64,000 nt of DNA. It comes from Octopus vulgaris (Eukaryota). Made by a program: the position numbers and the translations under genes. Location: the NCBI GenBank assembly GCA_951406725.2, contig OX597836.1, positions 4,588,001 through 4,652,000 of the forward strand, in the 5' to 3' direction. Below the pieces are notes generated by a model that did no database searches, was not told the DNA's origin, and worked only from the letters and a program-made list of their open reading frames with translations. Shown piece by piece: positions 1-64,000 of this stretch (position 1 is its first letter; each line of letters opens with the position of its first letter).

Positions 1-2
1 AG

Positions 3-242
3 GTGGTTAAAAACAATGCTAACAAGAAATTGAAAAGTAGCATACATAATACCAAAAACAAGACAGAAAACATAACGAAACCAAGTAAAGTACCACAACC
101 AAAACGCAAAATTCATCAAGCAAACATCAACAGGAATATAAATCATAACCAGAAAAAAATCCATTTTTTTACGTCAGGACAACAAACACCGGAGAAAGAA
201 AAAATCCAAGAGGAAACATACCCCAAACAACTGAACGTATAG
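3..242 (+). CDS. C-terminal end of PLE ORF1, copy 1 (truncated by window edge)
   Basis: Peptide matches the last ~79 aa of ORF1 in copy 3 (...EETYPKQLNV*). Confidence 0.8.
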   Translation: MVKNNANKKLKSSIHNTKNKTENITKPSKVPQPKRKIHQANINRNINHNQKKIHFFTSGQQTPEKEKIQEETYPKQLNV

Positions 243-2475
243 ATCCTAAAATAATTAATTTATCAAAAAGAGATCTTGACAATGATGAAATCCAACTTCT
301 GTCAAAAGGACTGAAATTCACACCTACACCAACAGCCAACCACCAAGAATTAAAGGAGGATATCCAAAAATTCTGTCGAAAATTACGACTTGTAGAATTC
401 TTCGCTAACAAAAGTAATGAGATTGATGAATCCCTAGTAAGGAATAAATCAAATTTCACCCCACCAAAAGGAAGAAATAACTACCTTGACCAATACATTG
501 ATATCCTGTCTAAATTTCCCCTTAGACGCAATACCAATGTTAGGCCAAACATTAGCAAATCAGAGATGTCTGCATGTAAACGTATACAAAACGATCAAAC
601 AATAATAATTAAACAAGCAGATAAAGGTGGTGCAATTGTTATTATGGATACCGAATACTATAAGGATTTGGTTGAAGACCAACTGAAGGATACAACCTTC
701 TATTGTGAAATACCCGCAAATATAGACCACCACATCATGAAAAAGATCAACAACCTGATTTCAACACACCACAACTCACTTACGGATAATGAAAAAGACT
801 ACATCACCAATTTTGAACCAAAACCCAGCAACTTCTACGGCTTACCAAAAATACACAAATCAAAAAACATTCAACAGGCAGTAAAAGAACAAGAAAGTGA
901 GTACATAAAATTATTACATCCAAAAGACCTAAAACTTAGACCTATTATAGCTGGTCCAGCATGCCCTACACACCGTCTAAGCAATTTTATTGACATTGTT
1001 TTGAAACCACTATGTACTTACATACCAAGTTTCATCAGGGATGACATCGACTTCCTGTCCCATCTTCCCAAAACAACAGAAACAAATTCAGTTTTGCTAA
1101 GTTTTGATGTGGTAAGCCTCTACACCAATATTCCACACGATTTAGGAATAAAGGCGATTAAATACTGGTTAGAAAAACATAGAGAAGTGATTCCCAGCAG
1201 ATTCACAGTGCCATTTATATTAGACACAGTCAAACTTATTCTAGAAAATAACACATTCTTCTTCAATGGAAAGAATTACATCCAAATTAGAGGCACGGCG
1301 ATGGGAACGAGGTTTGCTCCCGTTTACGCCAACTCTGTAATGGGATACTTAGAAGAACAACTCTACCAAGAGGTGGAGGTAAACTATGGCACTGGATTTA
1401 GAAAGTATATTGAAAAGGCATGGAAGAGATACCTAGACGACTGTTTCATAATCTGGACAGAATCTCTAAATACTCTGGAAGAGTTCAATATCCTCCTGAA
1501 CAACCTACACCCATCTCTCAAATTTACAAAGGAGATGAGTAGTACCAAATTACCATTCCTGGATATAATGGTAATTAAAAAAGACACCACCATCACCACA
1601 GATATATACTATAAACACACAGACACACATCAATACCTAAATTTTAAGTCGTGCCATCCACCACATACAAAAGTAACATCCCATACTGCCTAGCCAGAAG
1701 AATTTGTACTATTGTAGAAGATGCAAATATCAGGAACAAACGCCTAATAGAACTAAGAGAATTTTTGCTCAAACAAAAATACCCATCTCTACTTATAGAA
1801 AATGGCATACAGCGGGCTATAAAAATACCTATACAACAACTTAGGACAACCCAAGGAAGAGGAAAACAAGAACAAGTCATACCATTCATAGTGACACACA
1901 ACCCATGTCACCAGAATATCTTCAACATTGCCAAAGCAAACCTTCCAATCATTGCCCAAAGTAATGAATTAAAAGACATAATCAAGGATCGAGCTATGGT
2001 GCTTAGTAAAAGACAGCCTAAAAACTTGAAAACATTACTAACAAAGGCAAAATTTGACCTCAGCAACAAAGACCAAACATTCACGGTATCTAAATGCAAT
2101 GATAGCCGATGTGGCACATGCCAATTCATACATACCGGTCAATATATAAACACAAAAACCGGGAAAATATTCACAAACGCGAATATGAACTGCAAAAGCA
2201 GAAATTTAATTTACTGCATCAAATGCCCAAATTGTGAAGAAATATATGTAGGTCAGACGGGAAACGCACTATTAGAACGCTCACGTGTACACCGGCAACA
2301 GATTAGAGACCCAGAGGTCCGTCAGATACCTTTGAGTAACCACCTAGCAACATGTGGTCGGAAAATATATATAATATTTCCATTCTACAAATTACACAGC
2401 CCAAGTGAAATCGAGAGGAAAATCAGAGAAAAGAATTTTATTGATAAATTCGAACCCAAGCTAAATAAGCAATAA
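149..2475 (+). pseudogene. PLE ORF2 (RT + GIY-YIG), copy 1, split by a 1-nt deletion near 1672
   Basis: ORFs 566-1693 and 1651-2475 together match the 636-aa ORF of copies 2 and 3; ACAAAAGTAAC versus ACAAAACGTAAC. Could be an assembly indel. Frame is open from 149. Confidence 0.8.
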
Positions 2476-2789
2476 TAATAATACTTAGAGGTATTACTTC
2501 CACTGCTACGACCATGACCACTAACAACAACAACAATACTAAAGGTGATCAAGACGAAGATAGCAGGAAAATTATCTTATTTAGGGTTAAAAGTTCTATT
2601 GCCACCACCATCACCACTAGCAACAATAATTAAGGTGCTGACAATGATGATGATGACAATTGAAATATAAAAATATAAAAATCTCTGACAAAGGATATTT
2701 ACAACATTTCTAAAATAACCCAACAATTGCTGCTTCGGCCAGGGTCAAGATACAGGACTCTTGACCTGTCCAACAAAGCATGATGCCTA

Positions 2790-2933
2790 AACCAATCAGC
2801 TCAACCAACCAATCAGCTTAAGTAATTGAGTGATACTACACACTGATTGGTCAGAATACAGTTTGCAAAACCTAGCACTCTGGAGCCTACCCAGCTGTAT
2901 TTATAGCACAGAATCACTCATCTTGCTACAGTC
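2790..2933 (+). promoter_or_regulatory. Putative Pol II promoter in the PLE terminal region (repeated at ~7061-7204 and ~11334-11477)
   Basis: AACCAATCAG at 2790 and 2807, inverted CTGATTGGTC at 2843 (NF-Y type), TATTTATA at 2898, Inr-like ACAGTC about 30 nt downstream. Confidence 0.6.
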
Positions 2934-2968
2934 AAAAATTGTGAAGCATGACTGTCAACACTACTACA

Positions 2969-3013
2969 TGAACCCGAAGATTGCAGAATTCAATGCATGA
3001 AAGTACTAGTTCA
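2969..3013 (+). ncRNA. Minimal type I hammerhead ribozyme, PLE copy 1
   Basis: TGAAC-CCGAAGA-T-TGCA(GAATTCAA)TGCA-T-GAAA-GTAC-TA-GTTCA: stem I TGAAC/GTTCA, core CCGAAGA (U4C variant) and GAAA, palindromic stem III AGTACT, CUA cleavage triplet. Confidence 0.8.
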
Positions 3014-3102
3014 ATCAGAATGAATATTTAACATTCTACTATTTCATTTTATTTTATTCAATTATAATATATTATCTTATAATATATCATTATAAGATTG
3101 TA

Positions 3103-3108
3103 AATAAA
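3103..3108 (+). terminator. AATAAA about 40 nt before the unit end (also ~7374 and ~11647)
   Basis: GTAAATAAAACG followed by a T-rich stretch and the element terminus. Confidence 0.4.
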
Positions 3109-3220
3109 ACGTGAAAATCAGACAAGGTTGGAATTCTTTTTATTAATATATTCTTCTATACACAATCACACACACCCATATATATATATATATCTATATT
3201 CCTATTGTGTATATGCCAAC

Positions 3221-4504
3221 ATGTCTGGAAAGCAACAAACAAAATTAACAGAATCCGAAAGAATTCTAATGGAAATTTCATCGAAATTATCAACACTCAT
3301 CACGATGATTGACACACAATCCTCTATTTTAAAGGAAATAGAAAAACAGTCTACAGACGGAAAACTTGGAAATGAACACATAAACTCTGAAATTAAGAAT
3401 TTAGCTGAAATGATACCAACAATTATAAAATCTACAAGAGAAAGCCTACCACAACCTCCTTGGATGTCAGAAATAAACGAAAGAAATCTGGAAAAAGAGG
3501 CACACCGAAAAAGAGAAGAGATACAGAAGACATGGAAAAAACTCCTTAACATAAGAAAACAAAACTTCTGGAAGGCATATAAATGCGAAAAATATGCTGA
3601 AATACATTCGAAATGGATATCTTCAGCGGCACCCATACTTCCTCGGAAGTACCTAATTAAAGAAATTGCAGGAGAACCAGAGGAAGAAACTAAACTTCGA
3701 TGGGACCTTAGTTTGATAAAATTCAGGACCGACATCTCCATTACCCTGTCTAAACAATCCCGCTACAAAGCCAAATACGAAGCTATCGATGATCAAATCA
3801 GAGATGAAATATCCAAACTAACGACCGGCAATATAGCAGAAAAAATGCGAGAACTATGGATCAGAGATATCTCAAAAGAAGAAAGCAGATCAAGAAAGTT
3901 TTGGCAGCGGAAACAATTATTTCTCGACAAATATGCTACAAATTACGGTAAAGACACCAGAACTCCGAGAAATAGCATTAAAAGTGGACAACCTCACCAA
4001 CGCAACATACACCAGAACACGTGGCAACATGAACACCCGTTTCACCACGAATCGAAGACGAACTACGGTAAGAACTCTTCCCATTTTGTATGCAAACACC
4101 CTAATGCACACAACATGAACAAAAAGCACAAACAAAATAGATATTGTTTTGAACAAACCATTAGCAGTAGAAATAACAGGAGATCATTTTCAAGACCTCA
4201 ACAGAGATTACCCACAAGAAACTGGACAAAAAACCGATCTAGATCTAGAAGTAAACCCAGATCATTTCTCCAGGTGGTTAAAAACAATGCTAACAAGAAA
4301 TTGAAAAGTAGCATACATAATACCAAAAACAAGACAGAAAACATAACGAAACCAAGTAAAGTACCACAACCAAAACGCAAAATTCATCAAGCAAACATCA
4401 ACAGGAATATAAATCATAACCAGAAAAAAATCCATTTTTTTACGTCAGGACAACAAACACCGGAGAAAGAAAAATCCAAGAGGAAACATACCCCAAACAA
4501 CTGA
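3221..4504 (+). CDS. PLE ORF1, copy 2 (coiled-coil N-half, basic R/S/N/K-rich C-half; last residues frameshifted)
   Basis: ATG in good context (GCCAACATGT) at 3221; long open frame; identical to copy 3 until an A-run deletion near 4470. Confidence 0.8.
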   Translation: MSGKQQTKLTESERILMEISSKLSTLITMIDTQSSILKEIEKQSTDGKLGNEHINSEIKNLAEMIPTIIKSTRESLPQPPWMSEINERNLEKEAHRKREEIQKTWKKLLNIRKQNFWKAYKCEKYAEIHSKWISSAAPILPRKYLIKEIAGEPEEETKLRWDLSLIKFRTDISITLSKQSRYKAKYEAIDDQIRDEISKLTTGNIAEKMRELWIRDISKEESRSRKFWQRKQLFLDKYATNYGKDTRTPRNSIKSGQPHQRNIHQNTWQHEHPFHHESKTNYGKNSSHFVCKHPNAHNMNKKHKQNRYCFEQTISSRNNRRSFSRPQQRLPTRNWTKNRSRSRSKPRSFLQVVKNNANKKLKSSIHNTKNKTENITKPSKVPQPKRKIHQANINRNINHNQKKIHFFTSGQQTPEKEKSKRKHTPNN

Positions 4505-4834
4505 ACGTATAGATCCTAAAATAATTAATTTATCAAAAAGAGATCTTGACAATGATGAAATCCAACTTCTGTCAAAAGGACTGAAATTCACACCTACACC
4601 AACAGCCAACCACCAAGAATTAAAGGAGGATATCCAAAAATTCTGTCGAAAATTACGACTTGTAGAATTCTTCGCTAACAAAAGTAATGAGATTGATGAA
4701 TCCCTAGTAAGGAATAAATCAAATTTCACCCCACCAAAAGGAAGAAATAACTACCTTGACCAATACATTGATATCCTGTCTAAATTTCCCTTAGACGCAA
4801 TACCAATGTTAGGCCAAACATTAGCAAATCAGAG

Positions 4835-6745
4835 ATGTCTGCATGTAAACGTATACAAAACGATCAAACAATAATAATTAAACAAGCAGATAAAGGTGGT
4901 GCAATTGTTATTATGGATACCGAATACTATAAGGATTTGGTTGAAGACCAACTGAAGGATACAACCTTCTATTGTGAAATACCCGCAAATATAGACCACC
5001 ACATCATGAAAAAGATCAACAACCTGATTTCAACACACCACAACTCACTTACGGATAATGAAAAAGACTACATCACCAATTTTGAACCAAAACCCAGCAA
5101 CTTCTACGGCTTACCAAAAATACACAAATCAAAAAACATTCAACAGGCAGTAAAAGAACAAGAAAGTGAGTACATAAAATTATTACATCCAAAAGACCTA
5201 AAACTTAGACCTATTATAGCTGGTCCAGCATGCCCTACACACCGTCTAAGCAATTTTATTGACATTGTTTTGAAACCACTATGTACTTACATACCAAGTT
5301 TCATCAGGGATGACATCGACTTCCTGTCCCATCTTCCCAAAACAACAGAAACAAATTCAGTTTTGCTAAGTTTTGATGTGGTAAGCCTCTACACCAATAT
5401 TCCACACGATTTAGGAATAAAGGCGATTAAATACTGGTTAGAAAAACATAGAGAAGTGATTCCCAGCAGATTCACAGTGCCATTTATATTAGACACAGTC
5501 AAACTTATTCTAGAAAATAACACATTCTTCTTCAATGGAAAGAATTACATCCAAATTAGAGGCACGGCGATGGGAACGAGGTTTGCTCCCGTTTACGCCA
5601 ACTCTGTAATGGGATACTTAGAAGAACAACTCTACCAAGAGGTGGAGGTAAACTATGGCACTGGATTTAGAAAGTATATTGAAAAGGCATGGAAGAGATA
5701 CCTAGACGACTGTTTCATAATCTGGACAGAATCTCTAAATACTCTGGAAGAGTTCAATATCCTCCTGAACAACCTACACCCATCTCTCAAATTTACAAAG
5801 GAGATGAGTAGTACCAAATTACCATTCCTGGATATAATGGTAATTAAAAAAGACACCACCATCACCACAGATATATACTATAAACACACAGACACACATC
5901 AATACCTAAATTTTAAGTCGTGCCATCCACCACATACAAAACGTAACATCCCATACTGCCTAGCCAGAAGAATTTGTACTATTGTAGAAGATGCAAATAT
6001 CAGGAACAAACGCCTAATAGAACTAAGAGAATTTTTGCTCAAACAAAAATACCCATCTCTACTTATAGAAAATGGCATACAGCGGGCTATAAAAATACCT
6101 ATACAACAACTTAGGACAACCCAAGGAAGAGGAAAACAAGAACAAGTCATACCATTCATAGTGACACACAACCCATGTCACCAGAATATCTTCAACATTG
6201 CCAAAGCAAACCTTCCAATCATTGCCCAAAGTAATGAATTAAAAGACATAATCAAGGATCGAGCTATGGTGCTTAGTAAAAGACAGCCTAAAAACTTGAA
6301 AACATTACTAACAAAGGCAAAATTTGACCTCAGCAACAAAGACCAAACATTCACGGTATCTAAATGCAATGATAGCCGATGTGGCACATGCCAATTCATA
6401 CATACCGGTCAATATATAAACACAAAAACCGGAAAAATATTCACAAACGCGAATATGAACTGCAAAAGCAGAAATTTAATTTACTGCATCAAATGCCCAA
6501 ATTGTGAAGAAATATATGTAGGTCAGACGGGAAACGCACTATTAGAACGCTCACGTGTACACCGGCAACAGATTAGAGACCCAGAGGCCCGTCAGATACC
6601 TTTGAGTAACCACCTAGCAACATGTGGTCGGAAAATATATATAATATTTCCATTCTACAAATTACACAGCCCAAGTGAAATCGAGAGGAAAATCAGAGAA
6701 AAGAATTTTATTGATAAATTCGAACCCAAGCTAAATAAGCAATAA
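4835..6745 (+). CDS. PLE ORF2, copy 2: reverse transcriptase + C-terminal GIY-YIG endonuclease
   Basis: Motifs ADKGGAIV, GLPKIHK, RPII, SFDVVSLYTNIP, GTAMGT, RYLDD, FLD; linker CxxxxCxxC (CNDSRCGTC); LIYCIKCPNCEEIYVGQT...ER...H...H...E...FEPKLN. Confidence 0.95.
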   Translation: MSACKRIQNDQTIIIKQADKGGAIVIMDTEYYKDLVEDQLKDTTFYCEIPANIDHHIMKKINNLISTHHNSLTDNEKDYITNFEPKPSNFYGLPKIHKSKNIQQAVKEQESEYIKLLHPKDLKLRPIIAGPACPTHRLSNFIDIVLKPLCTYIPSFIRDDIDFLSHLPKTTETNSVLLSFDVVSLYTNIPHDLGIKAIKYWLEKHREVIPSRFTVPFILDTVKLILENNTFFFNGKNYIQIRGTAMGTRFAPVYANSVMGYLEEQLYQEVEVNYGTGFRKYIEKAWKRYLDDCFIIWTESLNTLEEFNILLNNLHPSLKFTKEMSSTKLPFLDIMVIKKDTTITTDIYYKHTDTHQYLNFKSCHPPHTKRNIPYCLARRICTIVEDANIRNKRLIELREFLLKQKYPSLLIENGIQRAIKIPIQQLRTTQGRGKQEQVIPFIVTHNPCHQNIFNIAKANLPIIAQSNELKDIIKDRAMVLSKRQPKNLKTLLTKAKFDLSNKDQTFTVSKCNDSRCGTCQFIHTGQYINTKTGKIFTNANMNCKSRNLIYCIKCPNCEEIYVGQTGNALLERSRVHRQQIRDPEARQIPLSNHLATCGRKIYIIFPFYKLHSPSEIERKIREKNFIDKFEPKLNKQ

Positions 6746-7239
6746 TAATAATACTTAGAGGTATTACTTCCACTGCTACGACCATGACCACTAACAACAA
6801 CAACAATACTAAAGGTGATCAAGACGAAGATAGCAGGAAAATTATCTTATTTAGGGTTAAAAGTTCTATTGCCACCACCATCACCACTAGCAACAATAAT
6901 TAAGGTGCTGACAATGATGATGATGACAATTGAAATATAAAAATATAAAAATCTCTGACAAAGGATATTTACAACATTTCTAAAAATAACCCAACAATTG
7001 CTGCTTCGGCCAGGGTCAAGATACAGGACTCTTGACCTGTCCAACAAAGCATGATGCCTAAACCAATCAGCTCAACCAACCAATCAGCTTAAGTAATTGA
7101 GTGATACTACACACTGATTGGTCAGAATACAGTTTGCAAAACCTAGCACTCTGGAGCCTACCCAGCTGTATTTATAGCACAGAATCACTCATCTTGCTAC
7201 AGTCAAAAATTGCGAAGCATGACTGTCAACACTACTACA

Positions 7240-7284
7240 TGAACCCGAAGATTGCAGAATTCAATGCATGAAAGTACTAGTTCA
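7240..7284 (+). ncRNA. Minimal type I hammerhead ribozyme, PLE copy 2
   Basis: Identical to 2969-3013. Confidence 0.8.
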
Positions 7285-7491
7285 ATCAGAATGAATATTT
7301 AACATTCTACTATTTCATTTTATTTTATTCAATTATAATATATTATCTTATAATATATCATTATAAGATTGTAAATAAAACGTGAAAATCAGACAAGGTT
7401 GGAATTCTTTTTATTAATATATTCTTCTATACACAATCACACACACCCATATATATATATATATCTATATTCCTATTGTGTATATGCCAAC

Positions 7492-8784
7492 ATGTCTGGA
7501 AAGCAACAAACAAAATTAACAGAATCCGAAAGAATTCTAATGGAAATTTCATCGAAATTATCAACACTCATCACGATGATTGACACACAATCCTCTATTT
7601 TAAAGGAAATAGAAAAACAGTCTACAGACGGAAAACTTGGAAATGAACACATAAACTCTGAAATTAAGAATTTAGCTGAAATGATACCAACAATTATAAA
7701 ATCTACAAGAGAAAGCCTACCACAACCTCCTTGGATGTCAGAAATAAACGAAAGAAATCTGGAAAAAGAGGCACACCGAAAAAGAGAAGAGATACAGAAG
7801 ACATGGAAAAAACTCCTTAACATAAGAAAACAAAACTTCTGGAAGGCATATAAATGCGAAAAATATGCTGAAATACATTCGAAATGGATATCTTCAGCGG
7901 CACCCATACTTCCTCGGAAGTACCTAATTAAAGAAATTGCAGGAGAACCAGAGGAAGAAACTAAACTTCGATGGGACCTTAGTTTGATAAAATTCAGGAC
8001 CGACATCTCCATTACCCTGTCTAAACAATCCCGCTACAAAGCCAAATACGAAGCTATCGATGATCAAATCAGAGATGAAATATCCAAACTAACGACCGGC
8101 AATATAGCAGAAAAAATGCGAGAACTATGGATCAGAGATATCTCAAAAGAAGAAAGCAGATCAAGAAAGTTTTGGCAGCGGAAACAATTATTTCTCGACA
8201 AATATGCTACAAATTACGGTAAAGACACCAGAACTCCGAGAAATAGCATTAAAAGTGGACAACCTCACCAACGCAACATACACCAGAACACGTGGCAACA
8301 TGAACACCCGTTTCACCACGAATCGAAGACGAACTACGGTAAGAACTCTTCCCATTTTGTATGCAAACACCCTAATGCACACAACATGAACAAAAAGCAC
8401 AAACAAAATAGATATTGTTTTGAACAAACCATTAGCAGTAGAAATAACAGGAGATCATTTTCAAGACCTCAACAGAGATTACCCACAAGAAACTGGACAA
8501 AAAACCGATCTAGATCTAGAAGTAAACCCAGATCATTTCTCCAGGTGGTTAAAAACAATGCTAACAAGAAATTGAAAAGTAGCATACATAATACCAAAAA
8601 CAAGACAGAAAACATAACGAAACCAAGTAAAGTACCACAACCAAAACGCAAAATTCATCAAGCAAACATCAACAGGAATATAAATCATAACCAGAAAAAA
8701 ATCCATTTTTTTACGTCAGGACAACAAACACCGGAGAAAGAAAAAATCCAAGAGGAAACATACCCCAAACAACTGAACGTATAG
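7492..8784 (+). CDS. PLE ORF1, copy 3 (430 aa; putative coiled-coil nucleic-acid-binding protein)
   Basis: ATG 7492 to TAG 8784 open; heptad-like helical N-terminus (LMEISSKLSTLITMIDTQSSILKEIEKQ); RSRSRSKPRS basic tract. Confidence 0.8.
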   Translation: MSGKQQTKLTESERILMEISSKLSTLITMIDTQSSILKEIEKQSTDGKLGNEHINSEIKNLAEMIPTIIKSTRESLPQPPWMSEINERNLEKEAHRKREEIQKTWKKLLNIRKQNFWKAYKCEKYAEIHSKWISSAAPILPRKYLIKEIAGEPEEETKLRWDLSLIKFRTDISITLSKQSRYKAKYEAIDDQIRDEISKLTTGNIAEKMRELWIRDISKEESRSRKFWQRKQLFLDKYATNYGKDTRTPRNSIKSGQPHQRNIHQNTWQHEHPFHHESKTNYGKNSSHFVCKHPNAHNMNKKHKQNRYCFEQTISSRNNRRSFSRPQQRLPTRNWTKNRSRSRSKPRSFLQVVKNNANKKLKSSIHNTKNKTENITKPSKVPQPKRKIHQANINRNINHNQKKIHFFTSGQQTPEKEKIQEETYPKQLNV

Positions 8785-11018
8785 ATCCTAAAATAATTAA
8801 TTTATCAAAAAGAGATCTTGACAATGATGAAATCCAACTTCTGTCAAAAGGACTGAAATTCACACCTACACCAACAGCCAACCACCAAGAATTAAAGGAG
8901 GATATCCAAAAATTCTGTCGAAAATTACGACTTGTAGAATTCTTCGCTAACAAAAGTAATGAGATTGATGAATCCCTAGTAAGGAATAAATCAAATTTCA
9001 CCCCACCAAAAGGAAGAAATAACTACCTTGACCAATACATTGATATCCTGTCTAAATTTCCCCTTAGACGCAATACCAATGTTAGGCCAAACATTAGCAA
9101 ATCAGAGATGTCTGCATGTAAACGTATACAAAACGATCAAACAATAATAATTAAACAAGCAGATAAAGGTGGTGCAATTGTTATTATGGATACCGAATAC
9201 TATAAGGATTTGGTTGAAGACCAACTGAAGGATACAACCTTCTATTGTGAAATACCCGCAAATATAGACCACCACATCATGAAAAAGATCAACAACCTGA
9301 TTTCAACACACCACAACTCACTTACGGATAATGAAAAAGACTACATCACCAATTTTGAACCAAAACCCAGCAACTTCTACGGCTTACCAAAAATACACAA
9401 ATCAAAAAACATTCAACAGGCAGTAAAAGAACAAGAAAGTGAGTACATAAAATTATTACATCCAAAAGACCTAAAACTTAGACCTATTATAGCTGGTCCA
9501 GCATGCCCTACACACCGTCTAAGCAATTTTATTGACATTGTTTTGAAACCACTATGTACTTACATACCAAGTTTCATCAGGGATGACATCGACTTCCTGT
9601 CCCATCTTCCCAAAACAACAGAAACAAATTCAGTTTTGCTAAGTTTTGATGTGGTAAGCCTCTACACCAATATTCCACACGATTTAGGAATAAAGGCGAT
9701 TAAATACTGGTTAGAAAAACATAGAGAAGTGATTCCCAGCAGATTCACAGTGCCATTTATATTAGACACAGTCAAACTTATTCTAGAAAATAACACATTC
9801 TTCTTCAATGGAAAGAATTACATCCAAATTAGAGGCACGGCGATGGGAACGAGGTTTGCTCCCGTTTACGCCAACTCTGTAATGGGATACTTAGAAGAAC
9901 AACTCTACCAAGAGGTGGAGGTAAACTATGGCACTGGATTTAGAAAGTATATTGAAAAGGCATGGAAGAGATACCTAGACGACTGTTTCATAATCTGGAC
10001 AGAATCTCTAAATACTCTGGAAGAGTTCAATATCCTCCTGAACAACCTACACCCATCTCTCAAATTTACAAAGGAGATGAGTAGTACCAAATTACCATTC
10101 CTGGATATAATGGTAATTAAAAAAGACACCACCATCACCACAGATATATACTATAAACACACAGACACACATCAATACCTAAATTTTAAGTCGTGCCATC
10201 CACCACATACAAAACGTAACATCCCATACTGCCTAGCCAGAAGAATTTGTACTATTGTAGAAGATGCAAATATCAGGAACAAACGCCTAATAGAACTAAG
10301 AGAATTTTTGCTCAAACAAAAATACCCATCTCTACTTATAGAAAATGGCATACAGCGGGCTATAAAAATACCTATACAACAACTTAGGACAACCCAAGGA
10401 AGAGGAAAACAAGAACAAGTCATACCATTCATAGTGACACACAACCCATGTCACCAGAATATCTTCAACATTGCCAAAGCAAACCTTCCAATCATTGCCC
10501 AAAGTAATGAATTAAAAGACATAATCAAGGATCGAGCTATGGTGCTTAGTAAAAGACAGCCTAAAAACTTGAAAACATTACTAACAAAGGCAAAATTTGA
10601 CCTCAGCAACAAAGACCAAACATTCACGGTATCTAAATGCAATGATAGCCGATGTGGCACATGCCAATTCATACATACCGGTCAATATATAAACACAAAA
10701 ACCGGAAAAATATTCACAAACGCGAATATGAACTGCAAAAGCAGAAATTTAATTTACTGCATCAAATGCCCAAATTGTGAAGAAATATATGTAGGTCAGA
10801 CGGGAAACGCACTATTAGAACGCTCACGTGTACACCGGCAACAGATTAGAGACCCAGAGGTCCGTCAGATACCTTTGAGTAACCACCTAGCAACATGTGG
10901 TCGGAAAATATATATAATATTTCCATTCTACAAATTACACAGCCCAAGTGAAATCGAGAGGAAAATCAGAGAAAAGAATTTTATTGATAAATTCGAACCC
11001 AAGCTAAATAAGCAATAA
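8691..11018 (+). CDS. PLE ORF2, copy 3: RT + GIY-YIG; frame open from 8691, first ATG only at 9108
   Basis: Same RT/EN motifs as copy 2. The ATG-less upstream extension encodes IINLSKRDLDNDEIQLLSKGLKFTPTP, the usual PLE N-terminal NLS...L.KGL.F.P motif. Confidence 0.95.
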   Translation, partial: PEKNPFFYVRTTNTGERKNPRGNIPQTTERIDPKIINLSKRDLDNDEIQLLSKGLKFTPTPTANHQELKEDIQKFCRKLRLVEFFANKSNEIDESLVRNKSNFTPPKGRNNYLDQYIDILSKFPLRRNTNVRPNISKSEMSACKRIQNDQTIIIKQADKGGAIVIMDTEYYKDLVEDQLKDTTFYCEIPANIDHHIMKKINNLISTHHNSLTDNEKDYITNFEPKPSNFYGLPKIHKSKNIQQAVKEQESEYIKLLHPKDLKLRPIIAGPACPTHRLSNFIDIVLKPLCTYIPSFIRDDIDFLSHLPKTTETNSVLLSFDVVSLYTNIPHDLGIKAIKYWLEKHREVIPSRFTVPFILDTVKLILENNTFFFNGKNYIQIRGTAMGTRFAPVYANSVMGYLEEQLYQEVEVNYGTGFRKYIEKAWKRYLDDCFIIWTESLNTLEEFNILLNNLHPSLKFTKEMSSTKLPFLDIMVIKKDTTITTDIYYKHTDTHQYLNFKSCHPPHTKRNIPYCLARRICTIVEDANIRNKRLIELREFLLKQKYPSLLIENGIQRAIKIPIQQLRTTQGRGKQEQVIPFIVTHNPCHQNIFNIAKANLPIIAQSNELKDIIKDRAMVLSKRQPKNLKTLLTKAKFDLSNKDQTFTVSKCNDSRCGTCQFIHTGQYINTKTGKIFTNANMNCKSRNLIYCIKCPNCEEIYVGQTGNALLERSRVHRQQIRDPEVRQIPLSNHLATCGRKIYIIFPFYKLHSPSEIERKIREKNFIDKFEPKLNKQ
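8706..8712 (+). promoter_or_regulatory. Putative -1 ribosomal frameshift heptamer U_UUU_UUU (also 164-170 and 4435-4441)
   Basis: In ORF1 frame CAT TTT TTT; lies 15 nt into the ORF1/ORF2 overlap; ORF2 is in the -1 frame. Confidence 0.65.
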
Positions 11019-11512
11019 TAATAATACTTAGAGGTATTACTTCCACTGCTACGACCATGACCACTAACAACAACAACAATACTAAAGGTGATCAAGACGA
11101 AGATAGCAGGAAAATTATCTTATTTAGGGTTAAAAGTTCTATTGCCACCACCATCACCACTAGCAACAATAATTAAGGTGCTGACAATGATGATGATGAC
11201 AATTGAAATATAAAAATATAAAAATCTCTGACAAAGGATATTTACAACATTTCTAAAAATAACCCAACAATTGCTGCTTCGGCCAGGGTCAAGATACAGG
11301 ACTCTTGACCTGTCCAACAAAGCATGATGCCTAAACCAATCAGCTCAACCAACCAATCAGCTTAAGTAATTGAGTGATACTACACACTGATTGGTCAGAA
11401 TACAGTTTGCAAAACCTAGCACTCTGGAGCCTACCCAGCTGTATTTATAGCACAGAATCACTCATCTTGCTACAGTCAAAAATTGCGAAGCATGACTGTC
11501 AACACTACTACA

Positions 11513-11557
11513 TGAACCCGAAGATTGCAGAATTCAATGCATGAAAGTACTAGTTCA
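11513..11557 (+). ncRNA. Minimal type I hammerhead ribozyme, PLE copy 3
   Basis: Identical to 2969-3013. Confidence 0.8.
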
Positions 11558-11686
11558 ATCAGAATGAATATTTAACATTCTACTATTTCATTTTATTTTA
11601 TTCAATTATAATATATTATCTTATAATATATCATTATAAGATTGTAAATAAAACGTGAAAATCAGACAAGGTTGGAATTCTTTTTA

Positions 11687-12002
<316 letters not shown>

Positions 12003-47826: not shown

Positions 47827-48240
47827 AAAGTTAATCCAAACAAGAAAACACAAAAAAAAATACAACAACGCGAGGACGTGGAACAAAAATAGTATTATTG
47901 GACGCTCAGGAAAGAAGGGAAGACGGAGGGTTTAACATTTCGAGCGGAGCTCTTCGTCGGAAACATAGGAGAAGGAAAGATCCCGAGAAGGGAAGACAGA
48001 GGAAAAAAATCGCCAACGGTACACACGAGGTCACAGTTAAACCAAAAATGAAAACACAAAAAGAAAACACAACAACGTGAGGACGTGGAACAAGTATAGT
48101 GTTATTGGACGGTCAGGAAAGGTAAGAAAAAAGGAGGGATCAACGTTTCGAGCGGAGCTCTTCGTCAGAAACACAGGAAGAGGAAAGATCCAAGGAAGAG
48201 AAGACGGAGAAAAACAATCGCCAACAATACACACGCGCTC
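47825..48240 (-). mobile_element. Tandem ~210-bp dimer, each unit with a minimal hammerhead (PLE pLTR / retrozyme-like)
   Basis: Units 47825-48035 and 48036-48240; minus strand GTTT-CCGACGA-AGAGCTCCGCTC-GAAATGTT-AAAC (47930-47964) and GTTT-CTGACGA-AGAGCTCCGCTC-GAAACGTT-GATC (48138-48172); bounded by (TA)n and (CA)n. Confidence 0.75.
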
Positions 48241-48316
48241 ACACACACACACACAGACACATACATACACACACACACTCACACACACTCACACACACTC
48301 ACACACACACACACAC

Positions 48317-63291: not shown

Positions 63292-63361
<70 letters not shown>

Positions 63362-63374
63362 CATTATTATTATA

Positions 63375-63412
<38 letters not shown>

Positions 63413-63486
63413 CATTATTATTATTATTATTATTATTATCATTATTATTATTATTATTATCATTATTATTATTATTATTATTATTA

Positions 63487-63517
<31 letters not shown>

Positions 63518-63579
63518 CATTATTATTATTATTATTATCATTATTATTATTATTATTATTATCATTATTATTATTATTA

Positions 63580-63613
<34 letters not shown>

Positions 63614-63630
63614 CATTATTATTATTATTA

Positions 63631-63688
<58 letters not shown>

Positions 63689-63718
63689 CATTATTATTAT
63701 TATTATCATTATTATTAA

Positions 63719-63772
<54 letters not shown>

Positions 63773-63777
63773 CATCA

Positions 63778-63850
<73 letters not shown>

Positions 63851-64000
63851 CATTATTATTATTATTATTATCATTATTATTATTATTATTATTATTATCA
63901 TTATTATTATTATTATTATTATTATCATTATTATTATTATTATTATCATTATTATTATTATTATTATTATTATCATTATTATTATTATTATTATTATTAT
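63292..64000. repeat. Long (ATT)n microsatellite with interspersed ATC
   Basis: Direct reading; more than 700 bp, runs off the window. Confidence 0.97.

What the first reader, a model, noticed from the sequence alone, without database searches (positions are those of the whole stretch)
2969..3013. One minimal hammerhead per repeat unit, with a palindromic stem III suited to dimeric cleavage
Seen: full type I HHR topology with a variant core (CCGAAGA) and a self-complementary stem III (AGTACT), once in each 4.27-kb unit. Known: PLE terminal repeats carry minimal HHRs that cleave better as dimers. Inference: two HHRs in a read-through transcript pair through stem III and release a unit-length RNA that could circularise.
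Basis: partly seen in the sequence, partly recalled or inferred. Interest (0 to 1): 0.7.

Follow-up and report, generated by a model that had tools for sequence, protein, structure and literature searches.

The report
Hammerhead ribozyme in tandem Penelope retrotransposon
This is a real small self-cleaving RNA motif of a kind already described in the terminal repeats of Penelope-like retrotransposons; it is shaped to work in pairs, but a core change probably weakens it, and the idea that it releases a circular RNA is a published, still unproven hypothesis.

Summary
Observation confirmed. An identical 45-nt type I hammerhead lies at 2969, 7240 and 11513, one per unit of a young head-to-tail array of a Neptune-type Penelope-like element. 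It beats shuffles (0-1 of 1000). A relative with a 48%-identical RT carries the same architecture with changed but still paired stems. The isolated motif cofolds into the double hammerhead. This is the known pLTR hammerhead: palindromic stem III, dimer cleavage and circularisation were proposed by Cervera and de la Pena 2014. Only U4C is unusual (0 of 56 published examples, 0 of 5 relatives). With a U10.1-U11.1 mismatch and 5'-flank misfolding it predicts weak activity. The array ends 143 nt past the cut, so the cut does not define the inserted end. A predicted promoter before the motif and a poly(A) signal after it put two hammerheads in a one-unit transcript. Side result: the element has a separate ORF1 with a conserved U-UUU-UUN putative -1 frameshift site (Phe-Phe/Leu tail in 77 of 87 homologues). 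Verdict: new member of a known kind, interest 0.3.

The parts
2969..3013 (+). Type I minimal hammerhead, copy 1 (U4C core, U10.1-U11.1 mismatch, palindromic stem III 3002-3007, predicted cut 3008|3009)
7240..7284 (+). Hammerhead copy 2, identical; predicted cut 7279|7280
11513..11557 (+). Hammerhead copy 3, identical; predicted cut 11552|11553
1..11695 (+). Head-to-tail array of a Penelope-like element, about 2.7 units visible, running off the 5' end of the window
2792..2933 (+). Predicted Pol II promoter in the pLTR: CCAAT 2792 and 2809, ATTGG 2846, TATTTATA 2898-2905, Inr-like ACAGTC 2928-2933 (start about 2930); repeated in each unit. Inferred from recalled consensus motifs
   Evidence: motif positions; function is inference
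3103..3108 (+). AATAAA, candidate poly(A) signal about 95 nt after the cut (7374 and 11647 in the other units)
   Evidence: function is inference
7492..8784 (+). ORF1 of unit 3, 430 aa: four long helices (residues 12-241) and a low-confidence basic tail; no Pfam family
8706..8712 (+). T TTT TTT heptamer in the ORF1 frame within the ORF1/ORF2 overlap; putative -1 ribosomal frameshift site
8691..11018 (+). ORF2 of unit 3 (stop to stop, 775 aa): RT with YLDD, CX4CXXC linker, C-terminal GIY-YIG endonuclease with an internal CXXC; in the -1 frame relative to ORF1
11690..12002 (.). (TA)n microsatellite into which the 3' end of the array merges (last base shared with the unit: 11695)

Best explanation
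The motif is the pLTR hammerhead of a recently inserted, tandem, Neptune-type endonuclease-positive Penelope-like element. SHOWN: sequence, position, architecture shared with a relative, and an isolated dimer that folds as a double hammerhead. INFERRED: (1) transcription starts about 40 nt upstream of a hammerhead (about 2930), crosses ORF1 and RT-EN and ends after the next AATAAA, so even a one-unit transcript has a hammerhead at each end. (2) A single copy cannot form stem III (1 bp plus a 4-nt loop). Two copies swap strands, pairing the two AGUACU segments (6 bp) and both stems I (2 x 5 bp); each core then cuts the partner after A17. (3) Because of U4C, the U-U mismatch, no visible loop-loop contacts and competing 5'-flank pairing, cleavage is slow and probably needs a chaperone such as an element protein; most RNA stays uncut and serves as mRNA and template. 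(4) A doubly cut minority gives a 4273-nt RNA with 5'-OH and 2',3'-cyclic phosphate whose ends are held together by stem I, a substrate for RtcB-type ligation. My estimates for the steps: true PLE hammerhead homologue 0.95; dimer-dependent if active 0.8; measurable cleavage 0.5-0.6; a circle as the actual template for this array about 0.2.
For: Three exact copies, one per unit, in the non-coding repeat between RT-EN and the next ORF1. Strict descriptor hit in 0-1 of 1000 shuffles. L001 (RT 48% identical) has TTGTAC CTGAAGA T CTGC AACA GCAG T GAA AACGTT A GTACAA: same U-U, 4-bp stem II, 6-nt palindrome and A17, with different but still paired letters in all three stems. A descriptor hit lies 3' of the RT-EN ORF in 5 of 8 distinct contigs, with a palindromic stem III in 4 of those 5. 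Cofold MFE of the 45- and 55-nt motif is exactly the double hammerhead (-17.0 against 2 x -5.3 kcal/mol for 45 nt); closing the monomer's A15.1-U16.1 pair raises its energy from -5.3 to -0.5. Only 2 of 256 four-base spacers, the native one included, give the full double hammerhead as MFE. U10.1-U11.1 is a known natural variant and the most active of the mispairs there (PMC3088659). U4C lowers activity in vitro but still supports viroid infectivity (same paper). Minimal PLE hammerheads cut weakly as dimers and not as monomers (PMC4209133). RtcB circularises doubly cut animal retrozyme monomers (PMC7229834).
Against: No activity data. All 5 related downstream motifs and all 56 published representatives have U at position 4, so U4C may be a disabling change in this family's founder. 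Under the exclusion rules of PMC3088659 (core change, mispair at 10.1-11.1) this hit would be rejected. With 10 or more nt of flank on both sides, or 39 nt on the 5' side only, the cofold MFE keeps only 18-26 of 48 double-hammerhead positions (5 of 8 contexts lost it). The native dimerisation gain is not exceptional: 44 of 256 spacers do as well through some fold. An overlapping palindrome ACUAGU has the same duplex energy (-4.8). The partners are 4.27 kb apart. In anole Poseidon, cleavage was not needed for insertion in vitro and no RNA-seq ends mapped to the cut (PMC11167929). Naiads proliferate without canonical hammerheads (PMC8557442). Rfam gives no support.
Confidence: 0.55

Rival explanations
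1. Crippled vestige: the founder of this array acquired U4C, the ribozyme is effectively dead, and the element spreads by target-primed reverse transcription from uncut linear RNA that starts about 143 nt past the motif.
For: U4 in 5 of 5 related downstream motifs and 56 of 56 published ones. In the decayed 208-bp repeat of this window one copy has CUGA and the other CCGA, so U4C can arise by drift. The array end is not at the cut. Hammerhead mutants do not affect Poseidon insertion in vitro. Naiads lack canonical hammerheads.
Against: All other core positions and the three stems are intact; a natural U4C hammerhead works in vivo; a published search descriptor admits CYGANGA (PMC13481778). Near-identical copies cannot show selection either way.
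Confidence: 0.25
2. 5'-leader switch: the useful cut is the one near the 5' end. It removes the cap and four of the six upstream AUGs and changes translation or stability, or turns the mRNA into a template; the partner may come from another transcript and no circle is involved.
For: The motif lies 40-84 nt after the predicted start and the cut 212 nt before the ORF1 AUG; 4 of 6 upstream AUGs precede the cut (positions). TATA-like boxes lie shortly upstream of the motif in L001 and L007. Type I hammerheads in viral 5'-UTRs promote cap-independent translation (PMC13725137, abstract only).
Against: The start site is only predicted; L009 shows no TATA-like box in 120 nt; an intron could remove the upstream AUGs instead (not tested); the viral precedent is from fungi and plants.
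Confidence: 0.12
3. Protein-assisted monomer: an element protein stabilises a single hammerhead, so the palindrome is incidental.
For: The Poseidon hammerhead cut only when the element protein was added.
Against: Stem III stays self-complementary with different letters in relatives (AGUACU, AACGUU, ACAUGU, ACUAGU, ACUGCAGU); the monomer stem III is unfavourable. Protein help and dimerisation are not exclusive.
Confidence: 0.07
4. Chance look-alike, not a hammerhead.
For: No Rfam match; loose descriptors hit 89 of 1000 shuffles.
Against: Strict descriptor 0-1 of 1000; same architecture with covarying stems at the same place in L001; expected position in a pLTR.
Confidence: 0.01

Closest known systems
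[quoted passage not shown]
   Same: Type I topology, position in the pLTR, short stem I, palindromic 15.2-16.2 region, dimer model and circular-template proposal. The Hydra and D. willistoni rows of Fig. S3 show the same U-U at the base of stem II and A17 (my parse: the GAAA column was extracted separately).
   Different: C at position 4 (0 of 56 rows, though their descriptor would not have found it); no G10.1-C11.1; stem II only 4 bp.
Neptune clade of endonuclease-positive PLEs (as described in PMC8557442; passages, Introduction and part 54 of 59 of the supplement read)
   Same: RT, CX2-5CXXC linker with a long spacer as in the Neptune rows of Fig. S2 (compared by eye), C-terminal GIY-YIG, tandem units, (TA)n target, 3' hammerhead.
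   Different: Canonical EN+ PLEs are described as single-ORF; this element has a separate 430-aa ORF1 and a putative -1 frameshift. The paper's Fig. 1 legend mentions an ORF1 separated by a frameshift with a pseudoknot in some PLE type, but the figure could not be seen. No strong stimulator structure was found here.
Poseidon element of Anolis carolinensis (Frangieh 2024, PMC11167929; parts 1-2 of 4 read)
   Same: Tandem PLE with a pLTR hammerhead; genomic ends lie downstream of the cut (RT starts at +111-118 of the ORF, cut at +26).
   Different: There the hammerhead overlaps the ORF start, the ORF is single and the clade lacks the linker zinc finger; here the end is 143 nt past the cut and before ORF1.
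Metazoan non-LTR retrozymes (PMC7229834, passages; preprint 10.64898/2026.07.22.740005, part 1 of 5)
   Same: One type I hammerhead per tandem unit; dimer-dependent cleavage in some; circular RNA made by RtcB in vitro.
   Different: Non-coding units of 170-400 nt with circles shown in vivo; here an autonomous 4.27-kb unit with no circle shown.

Membership tests
Type I hammerhead ribozyme | Three-way junction, ends in stem I | tested here: met
   Stem I 5 bp, stem II 4 bp, stem III 1 bp alone or 6 bp in a dimer
Type I hammerhead ribozyme | Strict core C3 U4 G5 A6 N7 G8 A9, G12 A13 A14, A15.1-U16.1, H17 | tested here: not met
   All met except U4, which is C. U4C is a known natural, weaker variant and a published CYGANGA descriptor admits it: it fails the strict consensus but fits the variant definition
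Type I hammerhead ribozyme | Paired 10.1-11.1 (usually G-C) | tested here: not met
   U-U mismatch, shared with L001; a known active natural variant
Type I hammerhead ribozyme | Covariation in stems among relatives | tested here: met
   L001 differs in all three stems with pairing kept. Only one close relative; MAFFT could not align the set, so no formal pair count
Type I hammerhead ribozyme | Match to an Rfam hammerhead model | tested here: not met
   None at gathering score or at E<=10
Type I hammerhead ribozyme | Self-cleavage after H17 | not testable with these tools
   Needs an in vitro or in vivo assay
PLE minimal (dimeric) hammerhead | Located in the pLTR, one per unit | tested here: met
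PLE minimal (dimeric) hammerhead | Very short, palindromic stem III | tested here: met
   AGUACU
PLE minimal (dimeric) hammerhead | Double-hammerhead fold favoured | tested here: inconclusive
   All 48 positions kept in 3 of 8 contexts, lost in 5 of 8 with longer 5' flanks
Neptune-type EN+ PLE | PLE-type RT with C-terminal GIY-YIG endonuclease | tested here: met
   Pfam RVT_1 E 2.3e-6 (below its curated cut-off) and GIY-YIG E 2.7e-5; 1253 homologues
Neptune-type EN+ PLE | CX2-5CXXC linker between RT and EN; two cysteines inside GIY-YIG | tested here: met
   CNDSRCGTC and CIKCPNC; spacing like the Neptune rows, unlike Nematis (by eye)
Neptune-type EN+ PLE | Tandem units and (TA)n target | tested here: met
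   L001 also runs into a TA tract about 55 nt after its cut
Neptune-type EN+ PLE | Single ORF (canonical EN+ PLE description) | tested here: not met
   Two overlapping ORFs in all three units and in L002; the clade's own definition may allow ORF1 (figure not seen)
Neptune-type EN+ PLE | Phylogenetic placement with reference Neptune RTs | not tested

The most novel reading that the evidence does not exclude
The U4C / U-U hammerhead is attenuated but functional. The two copies at the ends of a one-unit transcript excise an exact 4273-nt RNA, which is ligated into a circle; the frameshift-made ORF1-RT-EN protein starts reverse transcription 143 nt past the junction and goes round several times, writing this scarless multi-unit array into (TA)n. 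That would be direct evidence for a circular intermediate in an autonomous Penelope-like element, in a mollusc-associated clade that sets its ORF1:RT ratio by a -1 frameshift as retroviruses do. The frameshift part alone is much more likely (about 0.85), but may already be known.
Probability: 0.15. Interest if true: 0.72.

Novelty: new member of a known kind. Interest (0 to 1): 0.3.

Why it matters
The function of hammerheads in endonuclease-positive Penelope-like elements is still called unclear (PMC8557442). A very young array with one fully intact unit, a predicted promoter, an exact predicted junction and a natural U4C change is a convenient test case: a back-junction read across the cut would support the circular-template model, and a dead ribozyme in an evidently mobile element would support the view that these motifs are dispensable. 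The motif itself is ordinary for this class. The clade-wide frameshift signal may matter more for annotation, since gene callers report ORF1 and RT-EN as unrelated proteins.

Tried and rejected
Rfam: no hammerhead model hit; the 4 matches at E<=10 are miRNA families on a TA-rich stretch and were rejected as chance. Monomer MFE z-scores are uninformative. MAFFT alignment of seven motifs failed to register the cores, so no covariance model or pair count was built. Constrained dimer folding crashed; only unconstrained cofolds are reported. The hand-set parses of L007 and L009 were off by one and are not used; one search has them right. The descriptor hit in L008 lies inside its ORF and is not counted as a pLTR motif; L003 and L004 have little or no 3' flank. 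No pLTR nucleotide similarity to related loci beyond one E 0.93 match, and no other ORF1/ORF2 fragments in the rest of the window. No fused ORF1-RT protein: 0 of 6900 longer candidates (weak evidence); longest of the 120 listed RT-EN hits is 803 aa; 0 of 155 ORF1-family proteins reach 750 aa. ORF1 has no Pfam family, no PDB fold match at E<=0.001, and only unnamed Mollusca clusters below 0.9 in the Atlas. No strong stem or pseudoknot follows the slip site in the window (-6.9 kcal/mol; only 4-bp stems). A Phe-Phe pair upstream of the RT start was seen in only 3 of 13 homologues with a long enough N-terminus: inconclusive. Plasmid collection: no match. Not available: Lunse et al. 2017 on dimeric PLE hammerhead variants (title seen only in a reference list; not held) and Arkhipova et al. 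2017 on Terminons. Either may already describe U4C variants or the frameshift. Searches found no paper describing a slippery-site frameshift in EN+ PLEs, and searches 33, 62 and 67 none describing U4C in a PLE hammerhead; the library lacks most subscription papers. Metagenome and viral contig collections stayed unchecked, and supplements of the 2026 preprint could not be seen. The host organism was not determined.

Full report
Setting. The window is AT-rich, microsatellite-rich DNA of eukaryotic appearance. Bases 1-11695 are a head-to-tail array of a 4.27-kb unit that runs off the 5' end of the window and merges at its 3' end into a (TA)n tract. Units differ at 7 of 3015 and 3 of 4273 aligned columns. 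Unit 3 is intact; units 1 and 2 carry single-base deletions that break ORF2 (near 1673; near 4470 and 4788), which may be mutations or assembly errors. [quoted passage not shown] It has 1253 homologues among 8000 candidates scored, the named ones from bivalves or from bivalve-symbiont assemblies. By domain architecture this is a Neptune-type Penelope-like element (PLE); I compared the linker spacing by eye with Fig. S2 of PMC8557442 and built no tree.

Observation. The 45-mer at 2969-3013 occurs exactly three times, once per unit. A descriptor with these stem lengths and a palindromic stem III hit 0 of 1000 or 1 of 1000 shuffles of the unit; looser versions hit 13 and 89 of 1000 (descriptor written after the fact). 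Rfam does not see the motif.

Comparative evidence. One scan of bacterial genome contigs returned 9 loci on 8 contigs, evidently eukaryotic contaminants (my inference). The descriptor found a sense-strand motif 3' of the RT-EN ORF in 5 of 8 contigs, palindromic in stem III in 4 of the 5. One more hit lay inside an ORF, and two contigs had little or no 3' flank. L001 (RT 48% identical) matches the window's motif element by element (U-U mismatch, 4-bp stem II, 6-nt palindrome, A17) with different letters in all three stems and the canonical U4. L007 is another near-perfect tandem array (4 differences in 3083 nt) with one hammerhead per unit, so 'one per unit' is a generic PLE trait. In the supplement of Cervera and de la Pena 2014, all 56 representative motifs have U4, and the Hydra and D. 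willistoni PLE rows appear to share the U-U and A17 (my parse of extracted text).

Dimer model. Alone, the motif folds stems I and II at -5.3 kcal/mol, and closing A15.1-U16.1 raises this to -0.5. Two copies cofold at -17.0 into exactly the double hammerhead, with both stems I and stem III formed between copies. Only 2 of 256 spacers give that fold as MFE. Against this, the native gain on dimerisation is matched by 44 of 256 spacers through other folds, an overlapping palindrome has equal duplex energy, and the double-hammerhead pairs survive in only 3 of 8 flank contexts, being lost whenever 10 or more nt of 5' flank are present. L001 behaves similarly. These energies ignore core tertiary contacts and the 4.27-kb distance.

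Activity. U10.1-U11.1 is a known natural variant and the best-tolerated mispair at that place (PMC3088659, section 8). U4C considerably lowers activity in vitro but supports viroid infectivity (same paper, passage), where peripheral contacts are thought to compensate; none are evident here. PLE minimal hammerheads with an intact core already cut weakly and only as multimers or with an extended stem III. The Poseidon hammerhead needed protein and was dispensable for insertion in vitro. I therefore expect weak, possibly protein-assisted cleavage, and give about one chance in four that the motif is dead.

Transcript logic. CCAAT boxes, TATTTATA at 2898 and an Inr-like site at 2928 precede the motif, and AATAAA follows at 3103 (consensus recalled, function inferred). 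TATA-like boxes also precede the motif in L001 and L007 but not in L009. A review states that a downstream PLE is transcribed from its upstream partner's pLTR (PMC6765202, passage). A one-unit transcript would thus carry a hammerhead at each end, and a double cut would give a 4273-nt RNA with its ends paired through stem I. The array ends 143 nt past the last cut, and L001 runs into a TA tract about 55 nt past its cut. The template therefore contained sequence beyond the last cut: either uncut linear RNA or a religated circle with internal initiation, as seen for Poseidon. The sequence cannot tell these apart.

Side result: two ORFs. All three units and L002 have an ORF1 overlapping ORF2 in the -1 frame, with T TTT TTT (8706) or T TTT TTG (L002, 1202) in the ORF1 frame. 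ORF1 belongs to a family of 844 representatives. Among the 155 members held, 87 are 340-480 aa long; 77 of these 87 have Phe-Phe/Leu in the last 45 residues, against 4 and 7 of 87 in the two preceding 45-residue windows. The residue before it is never K, E, Q, M or W, whose codons cannot end in U, although these make up 21% of the tails (the sequences are related, so the nominal P of 1e-8 is overstated). This is the protein footprint of a conserved U-UUU-UUN slippery site. No fused proteins were found. ORF1 is predicted as long helices plus a disordered tail (mean pLDDT 64.6) with no fold match. Canonical EN+ PLEs are described as single-ORF, but a figure legend in PMC8557442 mentions a frameshifted ORF1 in some PLE type, and a killifish Neptune consensus has two non-overlapping ORFs (PMC12602865, passages), so I do not claim novelty.

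Papers seen. PMC4209133: main text parts 1-2 of 4, supplement parts 1-2 of 3. PMC11167929: parts 1-2 of 4. PMC8557442: passages, Introduction, a supplement search and one part. PMC3088659: passages and section 8. Preprint 10.64898/2026.07.22.740005: part 1 of 5. Passages only: PMC6765202, PMC7229834, PMC5408684, PMC6431247, PMC12602865, PMC3846280, PMC13481778. Abstract only: PMC13725137. Not seen: Lunse 2017 and Arkhipova 2017.

Verdict. A real feature, correctly described, and a new member of a known kind. The dimer and circle interpretation restates the 2014 model; it is plausible but untested, and this copy's U4C makes it a weaker example than its relatives. Interest 0.3.

Noticed in passing
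window 7492-11018 (slip site 8706-8712); L002 1199-1265: Separate ORF1 and RT-EN ORF joined by a putative -1 frameshift; the Phe-Phe/Leu footprint is present near the C-terminus in 77 of 87 full-length ORF1 homologues. Possibly the most interesting feature of the element; may be known.
   Followed up: yes
window 47829-48243, minus strand (cores at 48168 and 47960): A 208-bp two-copy repeat (83% matches) with a second, unrelated and decayed minimal hammerhead in each copy, one with CUGA and one with CCGA; looks like a retrozyme or pLTR remnant.
   Followed up: partly
window 2968-3000: A 10-codon upstream ORF starts one base before stem I and ends in the G12 region; six AUGs lie between the predicted start and the ORF1 AUG (positions). 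May be chance or removed by an unmapped intron.
   Followed up: no
window 3152-3220: Just after the point matching the array's 3' end, each unit has its own short CA and TA runs, resembling the (TA)n target; this could bear on insertion into its own pLTR.
   Followed up: no
window 2163, 2942, 6588: Three unit-private substitutions, one a C-to-T change in a CpG, and four single-base deletions in units 1 and 2; unit 3 has no private change.
   Followed up: partly
L001-L009: Penelope-like elements sit in GTDB bacterial assemblies (SUP05, Bacteroidota, Campylobacteraceae, Poribacteria and others), most likely host contamination; L006/L007 is a tandem array of a 3083-nt unit with a hammerhead in each unit.
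   Followed up: partly
window 63293-64000: Long (TAT)n tract, 236 copies, running off the window end, preceded by (ACT)n and other simple repeats.
   Followed up: no
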